A DNA stretch of 64,000 nucleotides, taken from the NCBI GenBank assembly GCA_000004985.1, contig GG738869.1. The stretch is one strand, 5' to 3'. Shown in pieces: positions 22,055 through 53,791 of the stretch. Each line of letters opens with the position of its first letter. The first letter of the stretch is position 1. The DNA comes from Naegleria gruberi. Its lineage: Eukaryota. Made by a program: the position numbers and the translations under genes. Below the pieces are notes generated by a model, which did not search any database, was not told where the DNA came from, and was given only the letters and a program-made list of their open reading frames with translations.

Positions 22055-23647
22055 TTATTTAAATTGATCGATATTTCTAAAGCTATTCTTTTGAGGATTT
22101 TCCACCTTTTTCATCAACTTTAAATATTCAACTCTGAAAGAATCCAACATGTCAGATTTGGATTGGTTTGGGAAATTCAATGAATTCTTGAACGTTTCAT
22201 GGCAGTTGATCAATTTCTTTCCAATTTGAATTTGAGCTTCATCGAAAATATTTGTCAAATCACCTTCAGAGTCACCAATCGATATCTTAACTTGATATCT
22301 TTCAATTTCCTTCTTAATTTCTTCATGTTTCGAATACTTGACATGATTTCTGGCAAGTTCAGTATCCAAGAATTGATTATATATTTCCATTGCTTGTCTA
22401 TCTTCACTATCATTCAACTTGAACGAATTCAGTGACAATAAATCACTGGAAAATGTCAAAATCTCACTCTGTTCATCATCTTCCTGAGAAGGTGAATTAG
22501 CAGTGGAGCAATTGAGTAAACTGCTGTTGTTATTTCTCTCATTGGAAAAGTTTTTCATATCTTCCAGAATTGACTTGATAGTCGAATGTAATGATTTCTT
22601 ATGTTCCTTAAATATCTGAACTTGTTCAAGAAAGTGAAATCTATTCGAAAGTGAATCTCCCTTACAATATTCACCAAATAAGGGTCTCATAAATGGATCT
22701 GCAATTGTCTGAATGACCATAATTGCCTTGGCATGTTCCAATTTCTTAGCCGAATCATGTTCAACCTTAATAGCATGAATAAAAATCAAGACAACCAATG
22801 GAATTGCCACTGATAAACAAACTGCAATAACTGTCAAGTCAGTTGTCGTGGCAGTTTCCATCGCATTTAGCTGAATTACACTCAAATTCTTGATATCACC
22901 CACAAAATTCACATATGTATTTAGAAAAGTGTACATTCCATTGTAATGAGTTGGATTATAAAAGGCAGTCAATGCAGCTGAATAATTCTTCGCCACTACA
23001 TATTCCACAACCTGTTCCTGTAATTTAAAAAGAGGTATTTCATTCGCGTCACGTGTCAAATTTCCCAAACTAGCACTTGGCACCAATGAAAATAATCGAT
23101 TCATGGTCGAAATTAATGATTTCTTAGCAGCATAATATTCCAATGCATAACTTTCATTCCTTCCATACACTGCTATATACTCTGTCATGATCATTGTATT
23201 GTAATACTTGTAGGAATTCCCGTAATGTTGTAAAATTTCGACAAGTGGCCACTTTACAATATCATAGTTATAAATTGTTGTTATGAAAATGGCAAGAAAT
23301 GAAGCAATAATCAAGAACATTCCCAATATAGAGACAATTCTCATGCAATTGAAAGCAAAAGTTCCACAACATGATTTGACATTTACAATGGATTGAGATT
23401 TTGACGTGTTGGAGGTAGTCTTGGTTTTTGCAGAAGTTATGGAATATTTTCGTTTTAGGGTTTGAATTCTGGATTCTTGAGCGTTGATAACGGTAATGGT
23501 GCCATCATCAATTAGGACACTTTTCTTTCGAATAGGTTCATCACCTTGATTAGTTTCGGATAATGGAATGGGTGAAGTAATGGTTACACTGGTTGAGGTT
23601 GGAGAGTTGAGTCTTTCGCGAGGAGTTTCGTTGGGGAGAACTGGCAT
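22055..23647 (-). CDS. receptor-like RGS protein, type A (cytoplasmic N-terminus, TM1, about 170-aa N-glycosylated ectodomain, TM2, C-terminal RGS domain)
   Basis: 530-aa ORF with aaaaaaATG. The RGS core is IADPFMRPLFGEYCKGDSLSNRFHFLEQVQIFKEHKK...AMEIYNQFLD...FDEAQIQIGKKLI. It has two hydrophobic helices and many NxS/T sites between them. It is a paralog of 43295..44602. Confidence 0.7.
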   Translation of the reverse strand: MPVLPNETPRERLNSPTSTSVTITSPIPLSETNQGDEPIRKKSVLIDDGTITVINAQESRIQTLKRKYSITSAKTKTTSNTSKSQSIVNVKSCCGTFAFNCMRIVSILGMFLIIASFLAIFITTIYNYDIVKWPLVEILQHYGNSYKYYNTMIMTEYIAVYGRNESYALEYYAAKKSLISTMNRLFSLVPSASLGNLTRDANEIPLFKLQEQVVEYVVAKNYSAALTAFYNPTHYNGMYTFLNTYVNFVGDIKNLSVIQLNAMETATTTDLTVIAVCLSVAIPLVVLIFIHAIKVEHDSAKKLEHAKAIMVIQTIADPFMRPLFGEYCKGDSLSNRFHFLEQVQIFKEHKKSLHSTIKSILEDMKNFSNERNNNSSLLNCSTANSPSQEDDEQSEILTFSSDLLSLNSFKLNDSEDRQAMEIYNQFLDTELARNHVKYSKHEEIKKEIERYQVKISIGDSEGDLTNIFDEAQIQIGKKLINCHETFKNSLNFPNQSKSDMLDSFRVEYLKLMKKVENPQKNSFRNIDQFK

Positions 23648-23998
23648 TTTTTTAAGAGATTATTAATTAAGGAAGGGGACAGATGTTGAGTTTTTATTGG
23701 AAAGTAGACGAAAGATAAAATCTCTTGGAAGTACATCAATTCTCTTTGTACATTCCCCCAAGTGCATGATATGAATCATTACTTGCCTTTCGTATATTTC
23801 GGTAGAGATAGACGAAACGTAATAGGGATATTAGCTATCTCTCTCGAATATTAAAAAACAAGAGTTGTCATTGAACACTATCTGAGGTTTCCTTTTTCAT
23901 TACTATTGGAGATAAGCGCAATAAAAACAATCTCTAACAATCTTGAACTAAACCTACCGAAACGTCAACATCAATTAATTTTCAATAATTCAAAAAAA
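23648..23998. promoter_or_regulatory. divergent (head-to-head) intergenic region shared by RGS genes A1 and B1
   Basis: A 351-bp spacer lies between two divergently oriented start codons. It contains a direct repeat of TAGACGAAA (about 23708 and about 23806). Confidence 0.4.
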
Positions 23999-25714
23999 AT
24001 GAATTTAAATCAACATGAAATATTGGAAACCAGCATTAAGGAAGAGGTTTTTCAAAACACATCATCTAATAATCTAGTTTCGAATAATGAATCTTGGCAG
24101 GAGCAAGACCTTTCAATTGCACCAAACTTTCAACTTGGTGATACAAACGACATTCTCTCAAATACTCAACTTGATAATATTAGTAACATGGCAGACGATC
24201 TGGAAAGTCTAGAAATTCCTGAACTCGGCGACATGTCAAATGCCAGTCCCATGTTTACAAAAGTTCAACAAGAAGATGACATCAACGAAGAACCACTTGA
24301 AAACCACAATGAATCCCAACCAAACATTCGTAAAAGATACTCCCTAATCTCTCAATGGAACAAAAAGAAGGTTTCCCTTTGTTGCGGAGGAAAAATTGGA
24401 ATTGTCCCATGTTTATCCGTAATGGCAATTCTCCTCAGTATTTTAGCGCTCATTTCCATTGCCCTCCTCGTTGCCCTTCCATTCTATGAAATTAAAAAAA
24501 TACCAATTCTAGATTTAATGACAAGTCGTGCAAAATTATTTGCCTCATATATTGCCATGAGGGATATGTTAAGGTTGGGAGTTGAGAATAAGGGTAATTA
24601 TGATTCGTATTCGACCTATTATTACTATTATTACTATAAGAATAATTTTAATAATAGTTATACAAATTTTACGCATATTATTCCAACAAAGTTTAGTCAT
24701 GAATTTTTGACGAAACCTTTGGCAACTTATCCTATTTTTGTGAACTATTGGGATAAGATGGTAAAGAAGGTGGTTTCGTTTAGGGTGATAAATGGAACGA
24801 CCTATTACTCTCTCAATAAGACCATTCAAGCAGAGGCAAGAAGTCAACTTTACTCAGTTGACTATGCCACGACTTTCAATGATTTTCAAACCTCTTTCTA
24901 TGATTTACAGGACAAGCTATTCGAAATGTGCCATCATGCTGATATGCTGGTCAAGAATAGTGGAATTGCCACTTTATTTTTGGTCTGTTTCTCATTGGCA
25001 GTGATTCTTCCAACCATTCTAATAATTTTCATATTTGCATTGAGGAAAGATCGATCGAATGCAAAGAATCTTCACTCAGCCAATCGAAATATGTTGAAAG
25101 AAACCATGTCCAATCCGTCCATGAGAAGAGATTTTAGAAAGTTTTGTAAAGATTGTAAAATGGAAGGTCAATATTTGATTTTGGAAAAGATTCAATTTTA
25201 TAAGGAATTTTCATTGGAATCGTATGATGCACAAATGAATTTATTTGAATTGACTGGAGAGTATGTGAGGAAACAGAATATTAACATGAAGGAAAAGAAT
25301 TCGAGGTTGGTTTATAAGGTGGCTAAAGAGGCCGAGAAGAAATTAGTTTATTTTGAAAGGATGAAATACGAAACTATATTTGAGATTGTTGAAAATTTTC
25401 ATGAGGTGAATCAATGTTCGCACTTTTCAGCACTCTTTCAAGAAGTGAGAACAGTGTTGGATTTGTACAATAACAAGAATGATATCTTTGAGGATACAGA
25501 TCTACTGCCTTCGAAACTATTCGATAATTTAGAAAAGGAATTGAGTACAGCTCTTGCTAGAACTCATTTGCAATTCAAATCAACGAGTGGACTAAATGCT
25601 AGCAAAGCAATGTCATGCAATTCACCATCATCTCCAATTATTGTTGAGAAAACGAAGCCACTATTGGATCAATCAGTAATCTCTACTACAGAAGATCTTT
25701 CCATTCAAGTGTAA
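23999..25714 (+). CDS. receptor-like RGS protein, type B (two TM helices flanking an ectodomain, C-terminal RGS domain)
   Basis: The ORF starts at 23906. ATG 23999 has the aaaaaaaATG context. The RGS core is MSNPSMRRDFRKFCKDCKMEGQYLILEKIQFYKEF...LFDNLEKEL. It is a paralog of 41631..43181. Confidence 0.65.
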   Translation: MNLNQHEILETSIKEEVFQNTSSNNLVSNNESWQEQDLSIAPNFQLGDTNDILSNTQLDNISNMADDLESLEIPELGDMSNASPMFTKVQQEDDINEEPLENHNESQPNIRKRYSLISQWNKKKVSLCCGGKIGIVPCLSVMAILLSILALISIALLVALPFYEIKKIPILDLMTSRAKLFASYIAMRDMLRLGVENKGNYDSYSTYYYYYYYKNNFNNSYTNFTHIIPTKFSHEFLTKPLATYPIFVNYWDKMVKKVVSFRVINGTTYYSLNKTIQAEARSQLYSVDYATTFNDFQTSFYDLQDKLFEMCHHADMLVKNSGIATLFLVCFSLAVILPTILIIFIFALRKDRSNAKNLHSANRNMLKETMSNPSMRRDFRKFCKDCKMEGQYLILEKIQFYKEFSLESYDAQMNLFELTGEYVRKQNINMKEKNSRLVYKVAKEAEKKLVYFERMKYETIFEIVENFHEVNQCSHFSALFQEVRTVLDLYNNKNDIFEDTDLLPSKLFDNLEKELSTALARTHLQFKSTSGLNASKAMSCNSPSSPIIVEKTKPLLDQSVISTTEDLSIQV

Positions 25715-29176: not shown

Positions 29177-29249
29177 CGCCCACCGTGGGGGTCGAACCCA
29201 CGACCACAAGGTTAAGAGCCTTGCGCTCTACCGACTGAGCTAGACGGGC
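29177..29249 (-). tRNA. tRNA-Lys: tRNA-Lys (anticodon CUU)
   Basis: The reverse complement is GCCCGTCTAGCTCAGTCGGTAGAGCGCAAGGCTCTTAACCTTGTGGTCGTGGGTTCGACCCCCACGGTGGGCG. It has a cloverleaf with G-U pairs in the acceptor stem and the anticodon loop CTCTTAA. Confidence 0.9.
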
Positions 29250-34578: not shown

Positions 34579-35151
34579 ATGTTCATCAACAAACGAGTTT
34601 TTATTGCCCTGATGGTGGCTTTCGTATTGGCTTTGAGTTTTGCTTGGGCTAAACCAGAAGATCAGATGGAAGGAGTAACAGAATTGACCGATGCTACCTT
34701 TGAAAGCTTTATCAAATCGAACAAATATGTTGTTGTAGAATTTTATGCTCCGGTAGGTGTTGTTTAATGTACTTTTTGATTTTAAATGTCGATCGTGATG
34801 ATTATAATGATGATTAATGATATGGTGATGATGAATATTCCATATGATAATAATATTATTGATTGGATAATTGTGTTGGAATTATAGTGGTGTGGACATT
34901 GTCAACAATTTGCTAAAAGTTTAGGAAGACTTGGAAAGTTAATTTCTGGATCAAAGAGAGTTGATATTAAGATTGCTAAAGTGGATGGTGACAAGTATGA
35001 ATCATTGGCTAACAAGGTCAACTTGGAAGGTTTCCCAACTCTTTATTTATTTAAGGATGGAAATGTTAAGAAACCAATCACACACGAAGGTTCAATGACA
35101 ACAAAGGGTGTCCTCGATTTTGTCTATGAAAATACCAAGAAAAAGAACTAA
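34579..35151 (+). CDS. secreted thioredoxin-fold protein (WCGHC active site), 2 exons
   Basis: Exon 1 is 34579..34752 (signal peptide MFINKRVFIALMVAFVLALSFA, ...FYAP). Intron gtaggt...attatag. Exon 2 is 34888..35151 (WCGHCQQFAKS...). Confidence 0.7.
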
Positions 35152-35335
35152 ATTATTTATTAAAACATTGTAAATTATTATTTATTTAATTGGATGAAAT
35201 CAAATTTATTTAATTACTATAGTATAAGAATCGAATAAATTCAAAGCTTGAACTACATTCTGATTTGGTGAAATACTCTTTTTTAGAAATCAACAAAATA
35301 TTATAAATTAAATATTAAAGTTTTTAAGAAGAAAA

Positions 35336-36562
35336 ATGCAACATTTACAGTTCGTTCCTTCTCCTGAGGAGATTGGCTTTATCAAATCCATTCCTTCGAT
35401 AACATTTTGCAAAATGCACGGATTGGGAAATGATTATATTTACATTAATTGTTGTAATTTATTACATTCATCAGAAGCTAATGATTTCCGAATCTATCTA
35501 AATCATCAACATAATCTAATTGAATATTGTATTCAAAAGTTGTGTCATCGAACATTTGGTATTGGAGCTGATGGTGTAATTTTCATCACGAATCCAACAC
35601 CAGAATTATTGGAGAATGAAACAAATCATCATCAAATAATTCATTGTCAAATGGAAATGTACAATTCCGATGGATCGAGTGGAGAAATGTGTGGAAATGG
35701 ATTGAGATGTGTTGCTCAGTTTGCCTGTGATCGTTTGGTGGAGAGTGGTAAAATTAAAAAACAAACACTTGAGGGAGGACAACTTGGATATAGAATCAAT
35801 GTACAAAGTAATAGAGGAAAGAGATTGTATCAATGTATTTGTTATGAGGATAGGTCTACATTTTCCAAATCTTCACCTCTGATGGTTGAGATTGAGATGG
35901 GAAATTTACAAACAAAAAGTGTTAATTTCTCATTTGAAAATAATTCAAATTCTATTGAATATGTGGAACAGGAGGAGAATTCAATTAGGAAAATCATTTT
36001 CAAACAATATTTGGATTGTGAAATTCCTCTGTATTGTCTTTTGGTACCTAATCCACATGCCATTTGTTGGGTTAATGAAATTTCTTCACAGAATGAGATT
36101 GATAACACAATGAAAGCAGTCGATTCATTCCCACTTCATACAATTGGTCCAATCATTGAAAATTTGAAACAATTATTTCCAAATAGGACCAATGTAGAAT
36201 TCATTGAAACCATTTCAGCTCAGCATATTGAAACAAATGATTCACCTCTCATCAAATCATTAAAATCCAATTGCATTCTCTCTGCCCGTCAACGTACTTG
36301 GGAGAGAGGTAGTGGAGAAACCAATGCATGTGGGACTGGAGCTTTTGCTGTATCTCAAGTTCTCTACTTGAGAAATGCCATCACCAATTCAATTGGCAAT
36401 ATTCCAAATACTGCCACAGTCAGAATATCCCTCAATGGAGGTGATTTATGGTTCAGATATCACAAATCAAATCCAACTTCACTCGATCATATTCAAGTCA
36501 ACATGATTGGTTCTGTCAATTATTCTCACACAGGCTCCTTCAAATTATCAGATTATCAATAA
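35336..36562 (+). CDS. dapF: diaminopimelate epimerase (DapF family) with eukaryote-style insertions
   Basis: The N-terminal motif is FCKMHGLGNDYIYI (consensus F.KMHG.GNDF). The first catalytic Cys is in SDGSSGEMCGNGLRC. The second active-site motif is ERGSGETNACGTGAFA. It is 408 aa against about 275 aa for bacterial DapF. A single ORF with aaaaATG. Confidence 0.7.
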   Translation: MQHLQFVPSPEEIGFIKSIPSITFCKMHGLGNDYIYINCCNLLHSSEANDFRIYLNHQHNLIEYCIQKLCHRTFGIGADGVIFITNPTPELLENETNHHQIIHCQMEMYNSDGSSGEMCGNGLRCVAQFACDRLVESGKIKKQTLEGGQLGYRINVQSNRGKRLYQCICYEDRSTFSKSSPLMVEIEMGNLQTKSVNFSFENNSNSIEYVEQEENSIRKIIFKQYLDCEIPLYCLLVPNPHAICWVNEISSQNEIDNTMKAVDSFPLHTIGPIIENLKQLFPNRTNVEFIETISAQHIETNDSPLIKSLKSNCILSARQRTWERGSGETNACGTGAFAVSQVLYLRNAITNSIGNIPNTATVRISLNGGDLWFRYHKSNPTSLDHIQVNMIGSVNYSHTGSFKLSDYQ

Positions 36563-36880: not shown

Positions 36881-39340
36881 ATGAGCAAAAATTCCGAACA
36901 ACAACAACAGCAAGTGGATCCTCTTGCCGATCCTATTGTCGATACAATTACTAATGAACCTGCTACTGATGAAACTGGCTTTATTACTACACCATTTCTT
37001 GGTATGGAATTTCAAAGTATGCCTACTATGGGATCTTTGCAAGATAAGAGTAAGAAAGGAATCAACATTCATGTAGAAAGTGTTGAAGATGCCATTTCCG
37101 AAGTTAATGCATATGAATTGGACTTTTTAGTTATGGATATTTCTATTCATAAACAAACTCATCAACAACAAAAGAAGAATACGCCAAGTCAACCTACACT
37201 TTTGGATTTAAGACAAATTTGCCACAAGCACACAGTTTCTTCTAGACGTTATTTGTTTAGAACAACAGATTGGTCTCACTGTATGGTCGGAAAGGTAGAT
37301 GAATCTGCTTTCCAAGCTGCTTTTGGAATTTACAACAATAACAATAAGAAATTATTATCTTGTGAAAAGCCATACGAAGTTCCTGCAATTGATGAATATC
37401 TTTGCGGACAGCCATCCCCTGTTAAAAAGACAAAACAGAATAATACTCATGCCATTCCATCAACTGCTGGTACTCTTTCACAAGTTCATTTACAAGCTCA
37501 AGCTGCCAAGTTAATCATTCAACAAGAAATTCAATGGGCTTCTCACTTGTGTATTCCTGCTGTTCTTTTCCCAGAACCTCAAGGAAGAGAAATGACCATT
37601 GCTCTTGCTCAATTCATTAACAAGATTCTTCCAAGTATGGGAAGTACTGCTATTTGGGTTCGTTTCAGTGCTCAAAATTATCATTTGTGGAATTTGATGA
37701 GAACCATGTGCCAAAGCCATAGCTTACTTGTTCCAGTTTTGGATGTGAAAAATAGAGATATTGAAGAATTGGCTCAATCATGTAAGCCAACCCAAGTAGA
37801 AGGTGACAAGAAGAAGAAAAAGACAGCAAATACACCTGAAACTGCCCAACATTATCCACATGAAGCCTTTTGGAATCCTTTCGAAAAGCAAACATTCGGA
37901 TGCGAAAATCCACTTGTCACTGCCTTATCTGTATGGATTGCAGAAAATGTGAGAACAATAATTTTGAACTTGGACAATTTTGCTGCTCCACAAAACAATC
38001 AATCACACTTTTTGAATGAGGGATTGGAACAATTTATCAGAAAATCATTCAAATATGATATTCAATTTATTTTCAGTGCTGGAGCAGATGCCTCTCCAAA
38101 TATGAAGATTTACAAGAGATCAATCATGTCATTATTTGAAAATTGCCCAATCTTGTCTAAGGTTGAAGCATTCAGCAAGTCTTTCCGTGACTTTTTACAA
38201 AGACCATTACAACCACTCATTGATAACTTGGAAAGTCAAACTTATGAAGTTTTCGAACGTGATCCAATCAAATATCTTCTCTATGAACAAGCTGCTGAAA
38301 AGGCTCTTGTTGATTTGTATGAAGCTAAGAAGGCCAAACTTGCCAACGACCCAGAAGCCCTCAAGAATATGCGTGTCATTTCCATGGTTTTGGGTGCTGG
38401 TAGAGGTCCAATTGTTAAGGCAGTTTTAAGAGCTGCCAGAACAGTGAATGTTCCAGTGCTGGTTTATGCTGTAGAGAAGAATCCAAATGCTCTCAGTCAT
38501 TTACTCTACTATAGAAAGACTATTTGGAGTACATTTACTCATGTCAATGGTCGTGATAACTTGGATGTTCCAATAGTGGAAGTCATTCAAAAAGATATGC
38601 GTGTGTGGAATCCACCTGAAAAAGCAGATTTATTAGTTTCTGAATTGTTGGGATCTTTTGGTGATAATGAACTGAGTCCAGAATGTTTAGATGGTGCTCA
38701 ACGTCTCTTAAAGGACAATGGAGAAGGTATTTCAATTCCAGCCAAATACACCTCCTATGCAAGCCCATTGTGTAGTTATAAGGTCTGGACTGAGGTTAAG
38801 AACCTTTGTAAATCTACAACCTTTGAACATGCTGCTTTTGAAACTGGTTATGTATGTTTAGTCCATCGTGGTGTTCCACTAGATAAGCCACAAAGATGTT
38901 TCACTTTTGTCCACCCAAATCCTCAAGTCACAGAAGATCTTAAGGAAAAGGAAATACTTCGTGACCATGAAGATGATAGCTCGACTCTTCATGTTCCACT
39001 CATTAATAATGACAGATACGTCTCCCTTAAATTCAAATCACAACAAAATGCTGTTGTCCATGGTTTGATTGGTTACTTTGATTGCCAATTATATAAGGAT
39101 GTTTGGATGAGTATTCTGCCAGATACTTTCTCAACTGGTATGTTCAGTTGGTTCCCAATATTCTTCCCAATTGAAAACCCAGTTGCTGTCAAGAAGGGTG
39201 AAGAAATTGGTGTTCAAATCTGGAGAAATTGTGATATGGACATTGGCAGAAAAGTCTGGTATGAATGGTGTGTCACAACAAATGGCACATGTTCAAAGCT
39301 CCACAATAGTCAAGGCAAACACTATTACATTTCCCTCTAA
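36881..39340 (+). CDS. PRMT5: protein arginine N-methyltransferase 5 (PRMT5/Skb1/Hsl7)
   Basis: 819-aa single ORF. It has the PRMT5-specific SAM-binding motif VISMVLGAGRGPIV and the overall TIM-barrel, Rossmann and beta-barrel order typical of PRMT5. Confidence 0.85.
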   Translation: MSKNSEQQQQQVDPLADPIVDTITNEPATDETGFITTPFLGMEFQSMPTMGSLQDKSKKGINIHVESVEDAISEVNAYELDFLVMDISIHKQTHQQQKKNTPSQPTLLDLRQICHKHTVSSRRYLFRTTDWSHCMVGKVDESAFQAAFGIYNNNNKKLLSCEKPYEVPAIDEYLCGQPSPVKKTKQNNTHAIPSTAGTLSQVHLQAQAAKLIIQQEIQWASHLCIPAVLFPEPQGREMTIALAQFINKILPSMGSTAIWVRFSAQNYHLWNLMRTMCQSHSLLVPVLDVKNRDIEELAQSCKPTQVEGDKKKKKTANTPETAQHYPHEAFWNPFEKQTFGCENPLVTALSVWIAENVRTIILNLDNFAAPQNNQSHFLNEGLEQFIRKSFKYDIQFIFSAGADASPNMKIYKRSIMSLFENCPILSKVEAFSKSFRDFLQRPLQPLIDNLESQTYEVFERDPIKYLLYEQAAEKALVDLYEAKKAKLANDPEALKNMRVISMVLGAGRGPIVKAVLRAARTVNVPVLVYAVEKNPNALSHLLYYRKTIWSTFTHVNGRDNLDVPIVEVIQKDMRVWNPPEKADLLVSELLGSFGDNELSPECLDGAQRLLKDNGEGISIPAKYTSYASPLCSYKVWTEVKNLCKSTTFEHAAFETGYVCLVHRGVPLDKPQRCFTFVHPNPQVTEDLKEKEILRDHEDDSSTLHVPLINNDRYVSLKFKSQQNAVVHGLIGYFDCQLYKDVWMSILPDTFSTGMFSWFPIFFPIENPVAVKKGEEIGVQIWRNCDMDIGRKVWYEWCVTTNGTCSKLHNSQGKHYYISL

Positions 39341-41630: not shown

Positions 41631-43181
41631 TTAAATGAAAGGAAGATCACTTGTTGGAGATTGAGGAGAATTTGGAGAAGTAGTGTTCATATTCAAAGCA
41701 AGTGTTGATTTGAATTGAAAATGAGTTAGAGAAAGAATATCCGATATTTCCTTTTCGAGATTATCCAAAATTTTTGAATGGAGAATGTCCACAGTTTCGT
41801 ATGAGCCTTGTCTATTGTTATAGAGATCGATTTGGTGGATAATCCATTCCATACTACCAAGATAAACAGATTCTGATTGAATGGAATCATGAATTTCAAA
41901 AATGATTTCGTATTTGATTCGTTCTAGATGGGAAAGTTTCTTTTCAAGTTCATTCGAAACTTGCTGAATATAAATGTCTGCTCCTTTAGCCAAAGACTTT
42001 TCCGCTACAAACTCCTTTGTAATTTCATATAATTTGAGCTGACAATCTATTGAATCTTTACAAAATTCTTTAAAATATTGAATTCTTTCCAAAATTGAAA
42101 ATGGAATTCCAACCTTTGCCTTTTTACAAAATGTTTTAAATTCATCTCGCATTCCAATATCAGCCATCGTATCCTTCAATATATTAGTACTCTCAATCCT
42201 AACTTTCTTCTCATTTCGTATCAACTTTCGTCCCAACATTAAATAAACTAATATTCCAACAGGAATAACAATCACACAAGCCAGACACGACAAGACCAAC
42301 ACTGAAATTCCACTCGCTATGGTAAACTCATCAATTCTATTGCACAACAAGTAAATATCCTCCAATATCTCAAAAAACTTTGTTTCGAATAGTTCCATTT
42401 CATATTTAAATGTTCCATTATAATATTTGACATTGTAAACATTAAATTGTTGATAAAATTCATCCAATTTCGTATAATTTGAAGTATAATTACTCAGCTT
42501 ACAAAACAACCCAATCATTTCTGTCCAATTCTGATAAAGTGGCAGAAACACTTCCTCACCATTCGAATTTCCCATAAACGAATGTTCATAACTGTCAGGT
42601 ATTAAGGAAATCATTTTAAAAACCGATTGATTATAATCAAGCAGTGTATAATTAAGCATATCACAAAAATCTGAATAATTAATCGTTTCCAAACTATTAT
42701 TAAGAGCACTCAATTCTAACATGTCTCGTAAATAGACGAAAGAAGATTTAACTGAATATCGACTAATGAGTAGTTCCTTAATGGGAACAAATTCGGCTAT
42801 TCGTGATGGGACAATGATGGCGAGGGCAATGATGAGTAGAAACAAAATATTGATGAACATGGCCATGGTGGCAAGTAATGGAATTAATCCGAAACGTTTC
42901 GAACAACAATTGATTTGTTTTTTTGATAGTGAACGAGCCAAATCATCAACATGATTGGTTTCGTCCCGAATTTCCTCTATACCTGCTGGTAATTGATCTT
43001 CTATCCTTTCATCCTCAAATAGTATCCTCGGTTGACTTTCGAATACATTTTCATTCTCCACAAAAACACTTCCTTCATCATTTTCATAATTATTTGGTGA
43101 TTGAATTGAAGAATAACTTATTGCCCTCTTCAATTCAAAAGTAGACGGCTTGCTATATGATGGTGGATCATTTAAAAGCAT
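41631..43181 (-). CDS. receptor-like RGS protein, type B (paralog of 23999..25714)
   Basis: The ORF extends to 43301 via non-ATG codons. The first ATG with aaaaATG context is 43181 (MLLNDPPSYSK...). The RGS core is MADIGMRDEFKTFCKKAKVGIPFSILERIQYFKEF...ILDNLEKEI. It has two TM helices. Confidence 0.65.
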   Translation of the reverse strand: MLLNDPPSYSKPSTFELKRAISYSSIQSPNNYENDEGSVFVENENVFESQPRILFEDERIEDQLPAGIEEIRDETNHVDDLARSLSKKQINCCSKRFGLIPLLATMAMFINILFLLIIALAIIVPSRIAEFVPIKELLISRYSVKSSFVYLRDMLELSALNNSLETINYSDFCDMLNYTLLDYNQSVFKMISLIPDSYEHSFMGNSNGEEVFLPLYQNWTEMIGLFCKLSNYTSNYTKLDEFYQQFNVYNVKYYNGTFKYEMELFETKFFEILEDIYLLCNRIDEFTIASGISVLVLSCLACVIVIPVGILVYLMLGRKLIRNEKKVRIESTNILKDTMADIGMRDEFKTFCKKAKVGIPFSILERIQYFKEFCKDSIDCQLKLYEITKEFVAEKSLAKGADIYIQQVSNELEKKLSHLERIKYEIIFEIHDSIQSESVYLGSMEWIIHQIDLYNNRQGSYETVDILHSKILDNLEKEISDILSLTHFQFKSTLALNMNTTSPNSPQSPTSDLPFI

Positions 43182-43294
43182 TTTTATGATTCGTAAATAA
43201 GTTATTCGAAAGGAAAGAAGTAGAAATAGAGATAAAAACAACATAAAAAAAAGGCATTTCAGAGTACTTACGAGTAGTAACTTGAAACAAGAAA
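43182..43294. promoter_or_regulatory. short divergent intergenic region shared by RGS genes B2 and A2
   Basis: About 113 bp lie between divergent ATGs. It contains AAGTAGAAATAGAGATAAAAA, similar to a word in the 23648..23998 spacer. Confidence 0.35.
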
Positions 43295-44602
43295 ATGCCA
43301 ATCAATGAAATACGTAAAAACGTCAAGGCCAATCAAGAGACTACTTTCACAACCAAGTCTTCATCTCTTGATTCGAATATGCCAACTAGGCGAAAGATTG
43401 TAAAGTATTTGAGACTAATCTTGTTGATAGGATTCATTATCAACTTTTTATCTTTCATTTCAATTGCTATTATTTCAATATTATCTTTTCAAAGTTCTAA
43501 TTTTTCATTATCAACTGCCATATACAAATATGGAAATGCATATTTGGGTTATGATGAAATGGAATTGGCAGAATTTTTAGTATTACTGACAAGAAAGGAG
43601 AAATTCATTCAAAGATATTATCATTCAAAGAATGAATTGAATAGTTCACTTTCGTATGCTTTTCAAATAATTTCGAATGAAAATTCTTCTTGGATTCCAA
43701 CTCACGAATGGTTCCAAATTGAAAATCACGTAATGGAACTAGTCAAGAGTGGAAACTATTCTCAAGCTTACTCAGTTTCAACTTCTCCAGAACACAAACT
43801 AGCAGATCTTCGATTTATCCAATTTTTAGATTCAGTTCTCGCTCAATTATTCCAAATCAGTGAAACAAAAGAAGCAGAATATATGAAATACACAACTATT
43901 GATCTGGTTGTGGTGATTCTCTGTTTAGGAATTGCCATTCCAATTGTTTTATTAATTTTCATTGGAGTTATTAAATTGGATCGAGATTCAAAGAAGAGAT
44001 TGGAGAAGGCAAGGGCAGTTTCGGTTATTCATTCGATTTCTGATCCGTTTCTGAGACCCAAGTTTAGAAAATGTGTTGAGAATGATGAGTTGGTGTGTTT
44101 TGAATTCTTGGAGAATGTTCAATTGTTTAAGGAGAAGAAGAGATCTATTCATTCGACTATTCAGTCGATTCTAGACGAAATGAAAAAAGAAATGATACCT
44201 AATGATGAAGAGGATGATGCTAGTTCATTGAATGGAATTAGCCCACTAACCCTTTCTCCTGATTTATTCTTACAAATCAAGTCAGAAGATGATCAAATTA
44301 AGGCAATTGACATTTACAATCGTTTTCTCAATCCTAAAGAAAATCAGAAACACATCAAATATAAGAATCATGAAAAGATTTTGGAGGAAATTAATCATCA
44401 GAGTAATCAAGACCTGTTGTCCACTGTATTCGATCAGGTACAAATTGAAATTGCTAAAAAGCTCATCAAATCTCATGAATTATTCTCCAAATCTCAATCT
44501 TTCTCCACTCAAGACATTGAAGACCAATTGCTTTCCTATAGATTTGAATATCTTTCAATATTCAAACCTGAAAAACGAAACAGTCTATTCACATCAAAGT
44601 AA
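43295..44602 (+). CDS. receptor-like RGS protein, type A (paralog of 22055..23647)
   Basis: 435 aa. The RGS core is ISDPFLRPKFRKCVENDELVCFEFLENVQLFKEKK...AIDIYNRFLN...FDQVQIEIAKKLI. It has two TM helices flanking an ectodomain with NxS/T sites. Confidence 0.7.
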   Translation: MPINEIRKNVKANQETTFTTKSSSLDSNMPTRRKIVKYLRLILLIGFIINFLSFISIAIISILSFQSSNFSLSTAIYKYGNAYLGYDEMELAEFLVLLTRKEKFIQRYYHSKNELNSSLSYAFQIISNENSSWIPTHEWFQIENHVMELVKSGNYSQAYSVSTSPEHKLADLRFIQFLDSVLAQLFQISETKEAEYMKYTTIDLVVVILCLGIAIPIVLLIFIGVIKLDRDSKKRLEKARAVSVIHSISDPFLRPKFRKCVENDELVCFEFLENVQLFKEKKRSIHSTIQSILDEMKKEMIPNDEEDDASSLNGISPLTLSPDLFLQIKSEDDQIKAIDIYNRFLNPKENQKHIKYKNHEKILEEINHQSNQDLLSTVFDQVQIEIAKKLIKSHELFSKSQSFSTQDIEDQLLSYRFEYLSIFKPEKRNSLFTSK

Positions 44603-51508: not shown

Positions 51509-53791
51509 ATGCATCAGCAAGTTGGAATAGCAAGTAGCTACCAAACGTCATCCTCATCGACGCCCAGCATTTTGCTAAATACTACTTCATCTTCGGCATC
51601 TTTGAATCATCATCAGCAGCAGCAGCAACAGTATCATTCTCAAGGTGGGGGATATCAACAACAAATCAATATGATGAATAATTATAGTAATAATAATAGT
51701 ACATCATTGGGAACCAATAATAATAATAATTTGGATACTATGAGTGGTGTTAGTTATGAAAGGCTTGGAGGAACGGAGAATAATCCGTATCCTTCGTTTC
51801 CTCTTAATTTGAGAAGAAATCAGAATAATCAAGTAATTGCTCCTTCACCCTCATCTACAACAACAATTAATTCAATCAATAATAATAATAGTAATAATAA
51901 TAATAATAATAATACTAACAAAACAGGATGTTGTGGTGGATCGAATAAGAATAATCAACAAGCAAACACCACCAGTAATAATAACGTTTCTCCCAATAAT
52001 CCACCTCAAGGAATGCACTATTGTGCTTGTAAAAACTCATATCAACCTGGAGCCTCTGATTGTGAGTTCCAACAATTCATTACCAAATTTGCCAACGTTC
52101 CGAATACTACTCCATCACCCAACTCTGGATCGACTTCACCTCCTTCTAGTGTCACACCAGAGGATAACTTATCAATGCACACTTCAACTGTTGAGAAAGC
52201 TCTTCCGAAAGCCAATACATCCTGTTTATTGTGTAAATTAAGACATAGAAAGTGTGACTATAGTCATCCTTCCTGCACACATTGTATGAAAGAAAATAGA
52301 CAGTTTTGTCTCTACATTAGTAATGTAAAGAGAGGACCAAAAAAGCAAAAGGATGATGTGGATAGTATGGACCTGGATACAATCACCAAAGATAATATCG
52401 ACACTATTTACAAGACTATATATCAAAATATTTCTAATATCAAAGCTGATAATGAAGTGGTATCAAAGTTGTCATTCCAATTATTCAGTAAAATTGTTGA
52501 CAAGCTTCTTCCACGTTCGGCAAAAGAAGATATCTATGAATTAATGAGGGTAGCCTTACATCCAACGAATGAGGTTTTTTCTGGTGATATGGATCATTTC
52601 TACAAGTATTTTTACAAGATTGGAGAAAAGGAAATTGCTCTCGTTTCTATTTTGCAAGCCATAGCCCTTCAAAGATTAAATTACAAACAACTGGCAGCTA
52701 GACTCTATGAGAAGGCAAGATCAAAGATGTCTGTCATATTTGATCATGTATCGGATTTTAAACTCATTGCTGTTTATGTATTTGTGGCAATCTACTTGTT
52801 GGGAGATGGTGACAGACCAAGAGCTGAATACTTTCTCAATCATGTTAAATTCTATGTTAAAGAATTTCAACCAACAATGCACGAAGCACAATTTCTACTC
52901 AGAACTGTACTTTTATCAGAATCAATTTTGCAAGATAACTACGACCAACTTCTCAAACACTACGAAAATATTCTCCTCTTCTTTACACCTCAACAACACG
53001 ATCCTGAAAATTTACCTCAATCTGCCATCAATAGTATTTCCAGTTATATTGTAAATTCAAATGAGAAAATGTTCAAACCTGGAAGATGTAGAATTGGAGA
53101 TGCTGATTCTAATGGAGAATTGAAAAGGCAACTGATTCATTTGAGAGAAATTATTGATAAGAGTAATCAGGAATATCCAATTGGTTATCAACATTTATTG
53201 GACTCACTACTTAATTCTAATGATGATATTAACAATTTGTGTATTAATTTCAAACCTGAGAGCTCTGAACCTTTAGAACAGAAAATTGAACAAATTAATA
53301 TGGCCATCGAGAATATAAGAAAACAATACGGAAGCTGGGATTTTCTTGGAAACACTTTCATATCCATGCTATACAGCATTGTAATTTTACACAAGCACAA
53401 ATCATTCAACACTGATGAAATTTCAGTGGATGCTGTCAAATGTGCTGACATGATTACCAAATCAACAGAGTACGATGATTTTTCACTTTCTTCATTCCCT
53501 GCCTCCATTCCTCTCTCAATTGCCTGTAAAATTCACATGAGCTCTATGAGAAATATCCTTCGATCATCCACCCTCATCATTCACGAATACTCAGAACAAT
53601 TGAGAAACTATTTACAAAATGATTGTGATGCTCTCCAAATGCTCACTGCTAAATTCCCCCTTGTTGAGAAGAGATTCTCAACCTTGGTAAAAGATGCTCA
53701 ACAAGCATTAGGAAAATATGCAGAAATGAGAATGACTCAACCTCAAAGATTTGTTTCCCTTGACTCTATTTCCAAACATTTCCACATGTAA
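51509..53791 (+). CDS. Zn(II)2Cys6 binuclear-cluster (fungal-type) transcription factor with poly-N/poly-Q N-terminal region
   Basis: The zinc cluster is CLLCKLRHRKCDYSHPSCTHCMKENRQFC (CX2CX6CX6CX2CX7C). It has poly-N encoded by (AAT)n at about 51880..51920. 760 aa, aaaaaaaATG. Confidence 0.65.
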   Translation: MHQQVGIASSYQTSSSSTPSILLNTTSSSASLNHHQQQQQQYHSQGGGYQQQINMMNNYSNNNSTSLGTNNNNNLDTMSGVSYERLGGTENNPYPSFPLNLRRNQNNQVIAPSPSSTTTINSINNNNSNNNNNNNTNKTGCCGGSNKNNQQANTTSNNNVSPNNPPQGMHYCACKNSYQPGASDCEFQQFITKFANVPNTTPSPNSGSTSPPSSVTPEDNLSMHTSTVEKALPKANTSCLLCKLRHRKCDYSHPSCTHCMKENRQFCLYISNVKRGPKKQKDDVDSMDLDTITKDNIDTIYKTIYQNISNIKADNEVVSKLSFQLFSKIVDKLLPRSAKEDIYELMRVALHPTNEVFSGDMDHFYKYFYKIGEKEIALVSILQAIALQRLNYKQLAARLYEKARSKMSVIFDHVSDFKLIAVYVFVAIYLLGDGDRPRAEYFLNHVKFYVKEFQPTMHEAQFLLRTVLLSESILQDNYDQLLKHYENILLFFTPQQHDPENLPQSAINSISSYIVNSNEKMFKPGRCRIGDADSNGELKRQLIHLREIIDKSNQEYPIGYQHLLDSLLNSNDDINNLCINFKPESSEPLEQKIEQINMAIENIRKQYGSWDFLGNTFISMLYSIVILHKHKSFNTDEISVDAVKCADMITKSTEYDDFSLSSFPASIPLSIACKIHMSSMRNILRSSTLIIHEYSEQLRNYLQNDCDALQMLTAKFPLVEKRFSTLVKDAQQALGKYAEMRMTQPQRFVSLDSISKHFHM

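What the first reader, a model, noticed from the sequence alone, without database searches (positions are those of the whole stretch)
35336..36562. Genuine DapF (diaminopimelate epimerase) in a heterotroph-like eukaryotic gene neighbourhood
All DapF hallmarks are present. These are F.KMHGLGND at the N-terminus, the first catalytic Cys in EMCGNGLRC, and the second in ERGSGETNACGTGAFA. The protein is about 130 aa longer than bacterial enzymes because of two low-complexity insertions. The gene has a eukaryotic oligo(A)-ATG start and lies among ordinary nuclear genes. The DAP pathway is bacterial and plastid-derived, and no other lysine-biosynthesis gene is nearby. This points to horizontal acquisition, perhaps for a role in D-amino-acid or peptidoglycan-fragment metabolism rather than lysine synthesis.
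Basis: partly seen in the sequence, partly recalled or inferred. Interest (0 to 1): 0.6.

Follow-up and report, generated by a model that had tools for sequence, protein, structure and literature searches.

The report
Naegleria nuclear diaminopimelate epimerase gene

Summary
The ORF at 35336-36562 (+) is real. It is 100% identical to a public Naegleria gruberi protein that UniRef already names diaminopimelate epimerase. It passes the curated DapF equivalog model. It keeps both catalytic cysteines and every DAP-binding residue checked against E. coli numbering. Its predicted structure is a confident DapF fold.

One detail of the finding is wrong. The 128 extra residues are about 11 short insertions plus an N-terminal extension, not two low-complexity blocks.

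The gene is an established nuclear gene, not contamination:
- Its composition and codon usage match those of its neighbours.
- The order thioredoxin, DapF, PRMT5 is kept in N. fowleri and N. lovaniensis. A metagenomic Naegleria-like contig keeps the DapF-PRMT5 pair.
- The N. fowleri and N. lovaniensis orthologues carry a spliceosomal intron.
- dN/dS is 0.17-0.26.

Naegleria plus Willaertia form one clade (99.5% bootstrap). Its next-best relatives are bacterial sequences at 30-34% identity, and the donor is unresolved.

The most likely role is LL-/meso-DAP interconversion, feeding a short DAP-to-lysine salvage from digested bacteria, as proposed for kinetoplastids. That role needs LysA, and I could not search the Naegleria genome for it.

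Verdict: an ordinary though divergent new member of a known kind. Interest is low.

The parts
35336..36562 (+). Complete intron-less coding sequence of Naegleria gruberi diaminopimelate epimerase (DapF), 408 aa plus TAA stop
   Evidence: ORF listing. 100% identical over 100% of its length to the public protein P0001 [Naegleria gruberi]. Pfam PF01678 and TIGR00652 both score above their cutoffs.
35326..35335 (+). A-rich leader (aagaagaaaa) immediately before the ATG
   Evidence: Read directly from the sequence.
35405..35434 (+). N-terminal motif FCKMHGLGND (aa 24-33). Asn32 corresponds to E. coli Asn11.
   Evidence: MAFFT alignment with E. coli DapF. The E. coli sequence was verified as identical to PDB 5ygu_A.
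35663..35665 (+). Asn110, corresponding to E. coli Asn64 (binds the distal end of DAP)
   Evidence: The column is invariant in the 77-sequence alignment. The role of the residue comes from my recollection of the H. influenzae DapF-inhibitor structures.
35684..35710 (+). EMCGNGLRC (aa 117-125) with the first catalytic cysteine, Cys119 (E. coli Cys73), followed by Gly120 and Asn121
36050..36058 (+). Asn239-Pro240-His241, corresponding to E. coli Asn157 and His159
   Evidence: invariant columns.
36191..36193 (+). Asn286, corresponding to E. coli Asn190
36302..36349 (+). ERGSGETNACGTGAFA (aa 323-338): Glu323 and Arg324 (E. coli Glu208, Arg209), second catalytic cysteine Cys332 (Cys217), Gly333, Thr334
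35336..35392 (+). N-terminal extension of 19 aa, absent from bacterial DapF. It contains two acidic residues and has no obvious targeting-peptide character.
   Evidence: In the AF2 model it forms a helix at aa 10-18. Cytosolic location is an inference.
35465..35512 (+). Lineage-specific insertion, aa 44-59
   Evidence: The site is shared with the orthologues, but its length varies among them.
35753..35791 (+). Lineage-specific insertion, aa 140-152
35915..36022 (+). Least confident and compositionally simplest part of the protein (about aa 194-229). It contains the insertions at aa 207-211 and 221-229.
   Evidence: The mean pLDDT of the 10-residue blocks is 58-71 here, against 87.8 overall. 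The entropy minimum starts at about aa 195.
36083..36121 (+). Lineage-specific insertion, aa 250-262
36224..36280 (+). Lineage-specific insertion, aa 297-315, just upstream of the second catalytic motif. Predicted to be partly helical.
34579..35151 (+). Upstream neighbour: a two-exon secreted/ER-type thioredoxin-fold gene (…EFYAP | intron | WCGHCQ…). It is syntenic with the thioredoxin gene upstream of DapF in N. fowleri and N. lovaniensis.
36881..39340 (+). Downstream neighbour: PRMT5 arginine methyltransferase, a hallmark eukaryotic gene. The DapF-PRMT5 adjacency is conserved in three Naegleria genomes and one metagenomic contig.

Best explanation
The ORF encodes a catalytically competent, probably cytosolic, PLP-independent two-cysteine diaminopimelate epimerase that interconverts LL- and meso-2,6-diaminopimelate.

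The gene is of bacterial origin. It entered the nuclear genome before Naegleria and Willaertia diverged. It has since acquired host codon usage, about 11 insertions relative to bacterial DapF and, in the N. fowleri/N. lovaniensis branch, a spliceosomal intron.

Naegleria feeds on bacteria. The most likely role is therefore in a truncated salvage route: DAP released from digested peptidoglycan and from bacterial metabolite pools is equilibrated by DapF, and the meso isomer is decarboxylated by LysA to L-lysine.

Shown here: family membership, conservation of active-site and substrate-site residues, predicted fold, nuclear residence, purifying selection, and a restricted phylogenetic distribution.

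Inferred: enzymatic activity, cytosolic location, the source of the substrate, and coupling to LysA. I could not look for LysA in the genome.
For: Family and active site:
- TIGR00652 equivalog scores 148.4 bits against a cutoff of 114.65. Pfam PF01678 matches at 1.6e-33 with two stretches.
- The best solved relatives by sequence are all DapF.
- E. coli positions N11, N64, C73, G74, N75, N157, H159, N190, E208, R209, C217 and G218 are all conserved in N. gruberi and its four orthologues. The E. coli reference was verified. The N, C, H, E and R positions among these, plus G74 and G218, are invariant across 77 family members.

Structure:
- The AF2 model has pLDDT 87.8 and pTM 0.89.
- The top 26 Foldseek PDB hits are DapF structures, apart from two chains of O-ureidoserine racemase (ranks 7 and 12). 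DapF target-normalised TM-scores are 0.69-0.82.

Nuclear gene under selection:
- GC is 0.34, GC3 is 0.26, and the RSCU correlation with neighbouring genes is 0.87, within their range.
- Synteny is conserved.
- A canonical GTAAGT…TAG intron sits at the same site in N. fowleri (113 nt) and N. lovaniensis (96 nt).
- dN/dS is 0.26 at dS 0.76 between N. lovaniensis and N. fowleri.

Distribution:
- An exhaustive profile search of 1.84 billion representatives finds only the Naegleria/Willaertia cluster, followed by a sharp drop in score.
- The clade is monophyletic in 99.5% of bootstraps.

Functional precedent:
- The DapF plus LysA route from bacterial cell-wall DAP is described for Neobodo, prokinetoplastid PhF-6 and Leptomonas (PMC7052976 additional file 10).
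- DAP replaces lysine for Crithidia (PMC3846528).
- N. gruberi is reported to carry a bacterial-type MurNAc-6-phosphate etherase for murein breakdown (PMC7052976).
Against: - LysA was not shown to exist in Naegleria, and no tool here can scan that genome.
- Most peptidoglycan carries meso-DAP, which LysA uses directly. DapF therefore adds value only for LL-DAP. Several kinetoplastids manage with LysA alone.
- No expression data could be consulted.
- The many insertions, one of them poorly modelled (aa 191-220, pLDDT 58-71), could alter regulation, oligomerisation or specificity.
- No paper in the searchable library discusses this gene.
Confidence: 0.6

Rival explanations
1. The gene is one step of a complete de novo aspartate-to-lysine DAP pathway, with the other genes scattered elsewhere in the Naegleria genome, as reported for the choanoflagellate Monosiga.
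For: All Monosiga DAP-pathway genes are reported as horizontally acquired (PMC4046809), so a full pathway in a heterotroph has precedent. The closest bacterial relatives in the neighbour-joining tree sit in dapB-dapF-aminotransferase operons.
Against: No DapA, DapB, aminotransferase or LysA ORF of 150 aa or more lies in the 64-kb window or next to the orthologues. From my own recollection, not verified here, the defined minimal medium for N. gruberi (Fulton et al. 1984) includes lysine.
Confidence: 0.08
2. The protein is a neofunctionalised DapF-fold racemase acting on another substrate, like O-ureidoserine racemase, histidine racemase or the chlamydial bifunctional DapF/glutamate racemase. 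The many insertions would reflect that change.
For: The family has produced such paralogues, and they appear among the structural hits (7vdy, 9cr1). The protein is only 30-34% identical to any bacterial DapF and carries 128 extra residues.
Against: Every residue checked that contacts DAP, including the distal-site Asn110, Asn239, Asn286, Glu323 and Arg324, is conserved in all five orthologues. It passes the DapF equivalog cutoff. The bifunctional model NF038284 scores 46 bits against a cutoff of 350. The O-ureidoserine racemase is a much weaker sequence hit (2.9e-08 against 4.5e-22 for DapF).
Confidence: 0.1
3. The gene was inherited vertically from an early eukaryotic, mitochondrial or plastid-related ancestor and lost almost everywhere else, rather than acquired by horizontal transfer into the Naegleria/Willaertia lineage.
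For: Other heterotrophic eukaryotes also have DapF: Vermistella, an uncultured eukaryote whose eIF2-alpha is most similar to that of the heterolobosean Acrasis kona, kinetoplastids and choanoflagellates. The sister group of the Naegleria clade is unresolved.
Against: Those eukaryotic sequences are each closer to bacteria than to Naegleria. P0121's best named relatives are Fibrobacterota at 40-43%, and the Naegleria clade ranks below 110th in its BLAST list. Vermistella is 53% identical to a bacterial-length, unnamed sequence (P0090). Plant and cyanobacterial DapF score lower against the Naegleria protein than environmental bacterial sequences do. No eukaryote-wide clade appears in the neighbour-joining tree.
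Confidence: 0.1
4. The ORF is a bacterial contaminant, an assembly chimera or a decaying pseudogene.
For: The family is overwhelmingly bacterial, and the gene has no intron in N. gruberi.
Against: Composition and codon usage match the host. Eukaryotic genes lie within a few hundred bases on both sides. The same gene order occurs in independent assemblies of three Naegleria species, and a metagenomic contig keeps DapF next to PRMT5. Two orthologues carry spliceosomal introns. The reading frame is intact and dN/dS is 0.17-0.26.
Confidence: 0.01

Closest known systems
Bacterial diaminopimelate epimerase DapF (E. coli 4ijz/5ygu, H. influenzae 1gqz/2gke, B. anthracis 2otn, P. aeruginosa 8qzy)
   Same: Same two-domain fold in the prediction (target-normalised TM-score up to 0.82). 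Same Cys/Cys pair and same DAP-contacting residues. Passes the same equivalog HMM.
   Different: Only 30-34% identical to the closest bacterial sequences. 128 extra residues in about 11 insertions plus an N-terminal extension. MGNPH is changed to VPNPH. Encoded by a nuclear eukaryotic gene, not in a dap operon.
DapF plus LysA two-step DAP-to-lysine salvage in kinetoplastids (Neobodo designis, prokinetoplastid PhF-6, Leptomonas pyrrhocoris, Herpetomonas muscarum)
   Same: A bacterial-type DapF in a plastid-lacking, bacteria-associated protist from the sister phylum of Heterolobosea. The proposed source of substrate is bacterial cell wall. This is the model adopted here for the mechanism.
   Different: No sequence comparison with these proteins was possible. 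Herpetomonas DapF is reported to group with Bacteroidetes, whereas the Naegleria clade shows no such affinity. Presence of LysA in Naegleria was not tested.
Horizontally acquired DAP-pathway genes in choanoflagellates (Monosiga brevicollis, Salpingoeca rosetta)
   Same: dapF of prokaryotic origin in a phagotrophic heterotroph.
   Different: In Monosiga the whole DAP pathway is reported. For Naegleria only DapF is documented here.
DapF acquired from alpha-cyanobacteria in heterotrophic Paulinella ovalis-like cells
   Same: An intron-bearing nuclear DapF in a plastid-lacking bacterivore, with the rest of the pathway unknown.
   Different: The donor is clear there (cyanobacterial prey). The Naegleria donor is unresolved, and cyanobacterial DapF is not especially similar (72 bits for 9mro).
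Plant plastid DapF (Arabidopsis 3ejx)
   Same: A eukaryotic nuclear-encoded DapF of the same GxGNDY / GADG / MCGNG sequence type.
   Different: The plant enzyme works in a complete pathway (PMC3322482) and carries a plastid transit peptide (my own knowledge). The Naegleria protein has only a short extension that does not look like a transit peptide (my inference), and it is no closer to the plant enzyme (75 bits) than to bacteria (up to 115 bits).
DapF-fold paralogues with other substrates: O-ureidoserine racemase DcsC (7vdy), histidine racemase HisR (9cr1), chlamydial bifunctional DapF/glutamate racemase (NF038284)
   Same: Same fold and two-cysteine chemistry.
   Different: Much weaker sequence matches. 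The Naegleria protein keeps the DAP-specific distal-site residues.

Membership tests
Diaminopimelate epimerase (DapF, EC 5.1.1.7) | Scores above the curated cutoff of the equivalog HMM TIGR00652 and of Pfam PF01678, with both repeats matched | tested here: met
   148.4 bits against a cutoff of 114.65. PF01678 scores 115.8 bits against 34.7, with two stretches.
Diaminopimelate epimerase (DapF, EC 5.1.1.7) | Pair of catalytic cysteines, one per domain (E. coli/H. influenzae Cys73 and Cys217), each at the start of a helix in a CGNG or CG(S/T)G motif | tested here: met
   Cys119 in MCGNG and Cys332 in ACGTG. Both are conserved in all five heterolobosean sequences and invariant in 77 homologues. 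In the model, helices start at aa 120 and aa 333.
Diaminopimelate epimerase (DapF, EC 5.1.1.7) | Residues that bind DAP, especially its distal L-centre (E. coli Asn11, Asn64, Asn157, Asn190, Glu208, Arg209; His159). Their roles are taken from my recollection of the published H. influenzae structures. | tested here: met
   They correspond to Asn32, Asn110, Asn239, Asn286, Glu323, Arg324 and His241, all conserved. Gln44 is Gly, as in all the bacterial sequences of this sequence type in the alignment.
Diaminopimelate epimerase (DapF, EC 5.1.1.7) | Two structurally similar alpha/beta domains with the active site between them | tested here: met
   This rests on a prediction only. AF2 gives pLDDT 87.8 and pTM 0.89. 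Foldseek best hits are DapF crystal structures at E about 1e-21.
Diaminopimelate epimerase (DapF, EC 5.1.1.7) | Measured interconversion of LL- and meso-DAP | not testable with these tools
   Needs an enzyme assay or complementation of a dapF mutant.
Truncated DAP-to-lysine salvage module of bacterivorous protists (DapF + LysA) | A diaminopimelate decarboxylase (LysA) encoded in the same genome | not testable with these tools
   No tool can scan the Naegleria genome. No LysA-like ORF of 150 aa or more is in the window or in the fetched orthologous loci. Nothing in the searchable literature addresses it.
Truncated DAP-to-lysine salvage module of bacterivorous protists (DapF + LysA) | Organism ingests bacteria and has other murein-catabolic enzymes | not tested
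   Literature only: a bacterial-type MurNAc-6-P etherase is reported in N. gruberi (PMC7052976). That Naegleria feeds on bacteria is established knowledge.
Complete DAP lysine-biosynthesis pathway | DapA, DapB and a DapL or DapD/C/E (or Ddh) branch in the genome | not testable with these tools
   None is present in the 64-kb window.
Bifunctional DapF/glutamate racemase (NF038284, Chlamydia type) | Score above the curated cutoff | tested here: not met
   46 bits against a cutoff of 350.
Horizontally acquired bacterial gene in a eukaryote | Patchy eukaryotic distribution, with the closest relatives bacterial | tested here: met
   After four or five heterolobosean sequences, all of the best 120 word-index hits have bacterial-like lengths, and every named one is bacterial. 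The exhaustive search gives the same picture.
Horizontally acquired bacterial gene in a eukaryote | Supported nesting within a particular bacterial clade (donor identified) | tested here: inconclusive
   Neighbour-joining with 200 bootstraps: clade monophyly 99.5%, but no sister group above 15-22%. No maximum-likelihood software was available.

The most novel reading that the evidence does not exclude
Naegleria may have no LysA at all. In that case this heavily loop-decorated DapF would work as a stand-alone enzyme with a role unrelated to lysine. Examples would be processing or sensing DAP-type peptidoglycan fragments from prey or endosymbionts, or acting on a different diamino acid. That would make it a eukaryotic repurposing of a bacterial cell-wall enzyme.
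Probability: 0.12. Interest if true: 0.5.

Novelty: new member of a known kind. Interest (0 to 1): 0.22.

Why it matters
The value is modest. The gene adds the Naegleria/Willaertia lineage, which includes the brain-eating pathogen N. fowleri, to the list of bacterivorous protists that keep bacterial DAP-pathway enzymes. Side results suggest that several amoeboid lineages picked up DapF independently.

If the enzyme does feed a DAP-to-lysine salvage, it shows one way an amoeba extracts an essential amino acid from bacterial cell walls. Humans have no such enzyme, and N. fowleri keeps it under purifying selection. Nothing here suggests the enzyme is essential during infection, when no bacterial prey is available.

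The identity of the gene is already captured by automatic annotation (the UniRef name), so this is not a discovery of a new kind of system.

Tried and rejected
- **LysA, DapA, DapB and DapL in the Naegleria genome.** No tool scans eukaryotic genomes. The protein search lists only the best 120 hits, so a generic LysA query could not surface a Naegleria protein. I ran no further search on it.
- **Literature.** None returned a paper discussing Naegleria DapF or LysA. The Naegleria genome paper, my guess at the PMC id of the 1984 defined-medium paper and the amoeba auxotrophy review are not held.
- **Rosetta-stone fusions with LysA.** The long DapF-containing proteins turned out to be HAD-DapF, DapF-GNAT, or to carry no other recognised domain. 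None is a LysA fusion.
- **A wider heterolobosean DapF clade.** The best non-Naegleria profile hit, P0121, lies on a contig full of eukaryotic genes. Its eIF2-alpha is most similar to that of Acrasis kona. However, its DapF is closest to Fibrobacterota-like bacteria and not to Naegleria, so I rejected common ancestry as unsupported.
- **Donor identification.** Neighbour-joining bootstraps give no supported sister group.
- **Plant, cyanobacterial or chlamydial affinity.** Rejected on scores.
- **Contamination or pseudogene.** Rejected.
- **Expression evidence.** Not obtainable with these tools.
Full report
**Observation.** The window carries a single uninterrupted ORF at 35336-36562 on the + strand, 408 codons from ATG to TAA. 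An A-rich leader, aagaagaaaa, precedes the ATG.

The protein matches Pfam DAP_epimerase at E=1.6e-33 in two stretches. It scores 148.4 bits against the curated DapF equivalog TIGR00652, whose cutoff is 114.65. By sequence, its best solved relatives are DapF from B. anthracis, Arabidopsis and a cyanobacterium.

One detail of the finding is wrong. Aligned to bacterial enzymes, the 128 extra residues are not two low-complexity blocks. They are a 19-aa N-terminal extension plus about 11 insertions of 3-19 aa spread along the protein. Only one stretch, starting at about aa 195, is compositionally simple.

**What the window is, and whether the gene belongs there.** The protein is 100% identical over its full length to a public Naegleria gruberi protein. 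NCBI calls it 'predicted protein' and UniRef calls it diaminopimelate epimerase. The window has about 31-37% G+C throughout.

The neighbours are ordinary eukaryotic genes. They include Rab GDI, a protein kinase, LRR and TPR proteins, PRMT5, a JmjC/cupin protein, an NHL-repeat protein, F-box proteins, a nucleoside hydrolase and an AlkB-like oxygenase. Immediately upstream lies a two-exon CGHC thioredoxin.

The DapF gene has G+C 0.34 and GC3 0.26. Its RSCU correlation with the pooled neighbours is 0.87, within their own range of 0.75-0.93.

Orthologues exist in N. lovaniensis (474 aa, 50% identity), N. fowleri (496 aa, 46%), an uncultured Naegleria-like organism (375 aa, 44%) and Willaertia magna (341 aa, 42%). 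The order thioredoxin, DapF, PRMT5 is kept in N. fowleri and N. lovaniensis, and DapF-PRMT5 is kept in the metagenomic contig. In Willaertia the gene sits between BRO1/ALIX and ATG7 genes.

The N. fowleri and N. lovaniensis genes carry a canonical GTAAGT…TAG phase-0 intron, of 113 and 96 nt, at the same point between RQRT and WERGSGE. N. gruberi lacks it.

dN/dS is 0.26 between N. lovaniensis and N. fowleri, where dS is 0.76. It is about 0.17-0.24 for the more distant pairs that could be computed, though their synonymous sites are near saturation; one pair (N. lovaniensis versus the metagenomic contig) was fully saturated. Contamination, chimerism and pseudogene status are therefore excluded.

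**The enzyme.** I then used it as a ruler. N. gruberi has Asn32, Asn110, Cys119, Gly120, Asn121, Asn239, His241, Asn286, Glu323, Arg324, Cys332, Gly333 and Thr334. These correspond to E. coli Asn11, Asn64, Cys73, Gly74, Asn75, Asn157, His159, Asn190, Glu208, Arg209, Cys217, Gly218 and Ser219. All are kept in the four orthologues. All but Thr334 (nearly invariant) and Asn121 are invariant across a 77-sequence alignment.

From my knowledge of the H. influenzae inhibitor complexes, Asn64, Asn157, Asn190, Glu208 and Arg209 hold the distal L-centre of DAP. They are what make the enzyme DAP-specific.

An AlphaFold2 model built on that alignment is confident, with pLDDT 87.8 and pTM 0.89. Only aa 191-220 fall to 58-71. 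Its 26 best Foldseek matches in the PDB are DapF structures, apart from two chains of O-ureidoserine racemase. DapF target-normalised TM-scores are 0.69-0.82. Proline racemases and PhzF-type proteins follow. The chlamydial bifunctional model fails, at 46 bits against a cutoff of 350.

The short N-terminal extension contains acidic residues and is modelled as a helix, so I infer a cytosolic location. I conclude with high confidence that this is a functional DapF. Activity itself was not measured.

**Origin.** After the heterolobosean sequences, the best 115 hits among 5.8 billion proteins are all of bacterial length and 28-34% identical. Their names span Planctomycetota, Leptospira, Brachyspira, Lachnospiraceae, Nitrospirota and others.

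An exhaustive profile search of 1.84 billion cluster representatives gives 718-491 bits for the Naegleria and Willaertia sequences. The next scores are 187, 162 and 157 bits.

In a neighbour-joining tree of 265 sequences, the five heterolobosean proteins are monophyletic in 99.5% of 200 bootstraps. No sister group exceeds about 15-22%. The most frequent sister sequences include bacterial genes (P0010, P0124) that lie in dapB-dapF-aminotransferase operons.

Plant DapF (75 bits) and cyanobacterial DapF (72 bits) are no closer than other bacteria.

Other heterotrophic eukaryotes turned up in the search. One is an uncultured organism whose contig is full of eukaryotic genes and whose eIF2-alpha is most like that of Acrasis kona. 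The others are the amoebozoan Vermistella antarctica and an MMETSP transcript. Each of these DapFs is closer to bacterial sequences than to Naegleria. The uncultured one is closest to Fibrobacterota-like proteins at 40-43%, and Vermistella is 53% identical to a bacterial-length, unnamed sequence.

The simplest reading is an old bacterial-to-eukaryote transfer into the common ancestor of Naegleria and Willaertia. Fast divergence and loop accretion followed, and other amoeboid lineages made separate acquisitions. The donor is unresolved, and I had no maximum-likelihood software.

**Function in context.** No other lysine-pathway domain occurs in any ORF of 150 aa or more in the window, or beside the orthologues.

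The literature I could reach does not mention this gene. It does describe the same situation in the sister phylum:
- Some kinetoplastids have DAP epimerase plus DAP decarboxylase, and others only the decarboxylase. These enzymes are proposed to make lysine from DAP of bacterial cell walls (PMC7052976 additional file 10).
- DAP replaces lysine in Crithidia media, and the Herpetomonas dapF is a bacterial transfer (PMC3846528).
- The same BMC Biology paper notes a bacterial-type MurNAc-6-phosphate etherase in N. gruberi for murein breakdown.
- Anaerobic ciliates have acquired lysA together with murein-recycling genes (PMC13198582).
- Choanoflagellates and Paulinella ovalis-like cells provide further precedents for transferred dapF.

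I therefore favour the salvage model. DapF equilibrates LL- and meso-DAP released from prey, and LysA converts the meso isomer to lysine.

The weak points are these. LysA in Naegleria is untested. Peptidoglycan mostly supplies meso-DAP, which needs no epimerase. I could not check expression. My recollection that the defined medium for N. gruberi contains lysine argues against a full de novo pathway, but I could not verify it.

**Novelty and verdict.** The family, its chemistry and the phenomenon of bacterial dapF genes in plastid-lacking bacterivores are all known. The gene's identity is already in UniRef.

What this work adds is documentation. The Naegleria/Willaertia gene is intact, selected, anciently resident and unusually decorated with insertions, and it has no resolvable donor. 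That makes it a new member of a known kind, of low general interest.

The only route to something more surprising is a genome-wide absence of LysA. That would leave a conserved stand-alone DapF without an obvious job.

Noticed in passing
L002:6050-6300 (Willaertia magna JBEGDK010000149.1): The annotated Willaertia DapF model ends in a non-conserved tail (…SVNVFNDWSCWLRF*). The next reading frame continues with the conserved C-terminus (…MIGPVGYVFKGEV…). This points to a 1-nt indel, either an assembly error or a late frameshift.
   Followed up: partly
L001:11204-11316 and L004:9132-9227: N. fowleri and N. lovaniensis share a phase-0 GTAAGT…TAG intron, of 113 and 96 nt, exactly between RQRT and WERGSGE, just before the second catalytic motif. 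N. gruberi and the metagenomic Naegleria-like contig L003 lack it. The intron was either gained in one branch or lost in the other.
   Followed up: partly
L005:8001-8987 (JGI metagenome 3300062526, contig Ga0606088_0041): An uncultured eukaryote has its own DapF (P0121). Its contig also carries a proteasome subunit, NPR3, eIF2-alpha and RGS genes, and its eIF2-alpha is 45% identical to that of Acrasis kona. The closest named relatives of this DapF are Fibrobacterota (40-43%), not Naegleria, which suggests an independent acquisition.
   Followed up: yes
P0158 (EukProt, Vermistella antarctica transcript): This amoebozoan transcriptome encodes a 405-aa DapF that is 53% identical to a bacterial-length, unnamed sequence. 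It carries a long Ser/Gly-rich insertion near the C-terminus. It could be another heterotroph with a bacterial-type dapF, or bacterial carry-over in the transcriptome.
   Followed up: no
L007:7315-9982 and L008:397-3070: The bacterial sequences that most often fall next to the Naegleria clade sit in overlapping dapB-dapF-aminotransferase operons of unidentified bacteria.
   Followed up: partly
P0171, P0216, P0178 (family members from the exhaustive search): Fused architectures exist in the DapF family: HAD hydrolase-DapF (515 aa), DapF-GNAT acetyltransferase (514 aa), and a 687-aa protein with about 400 N-terminal residues lacking any Pfam match. None is fused to LysA.
   Followed up: partly
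window:17644-18321 (+): This ORF matches DUF455 strongly (3.2e-63), but only from profile position 74 onward. An upstream exon is therefore probably missing from the ORF. I recall this as a largely bacterial family, so it may be another candidate for bacterial ancestry.
   Followed up: no
window:2318-3457 (-): One 379-aa ORF combines an N-terminal F-box with a C-terminal Ras/Roc-type GTPase domain.
   Followed up: no
window:21879-21951 (+) and 29177-29249 (-): Two tRNA genes, tRNA-Ala(AGC) and tRNA-Lys(CTT), lie between protein-coding genes.
   Followed up: no
window, e.g. 3571-5343 (-), 22055-23647 (-), 23906-25714 (+), 41631-43301 (-), 51509-53791 (+), 60856-62496 (+): About half of the long ORFs in the window (up to 760 aa) have no Pfam match at E<=1e-5.
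   Followed up: no
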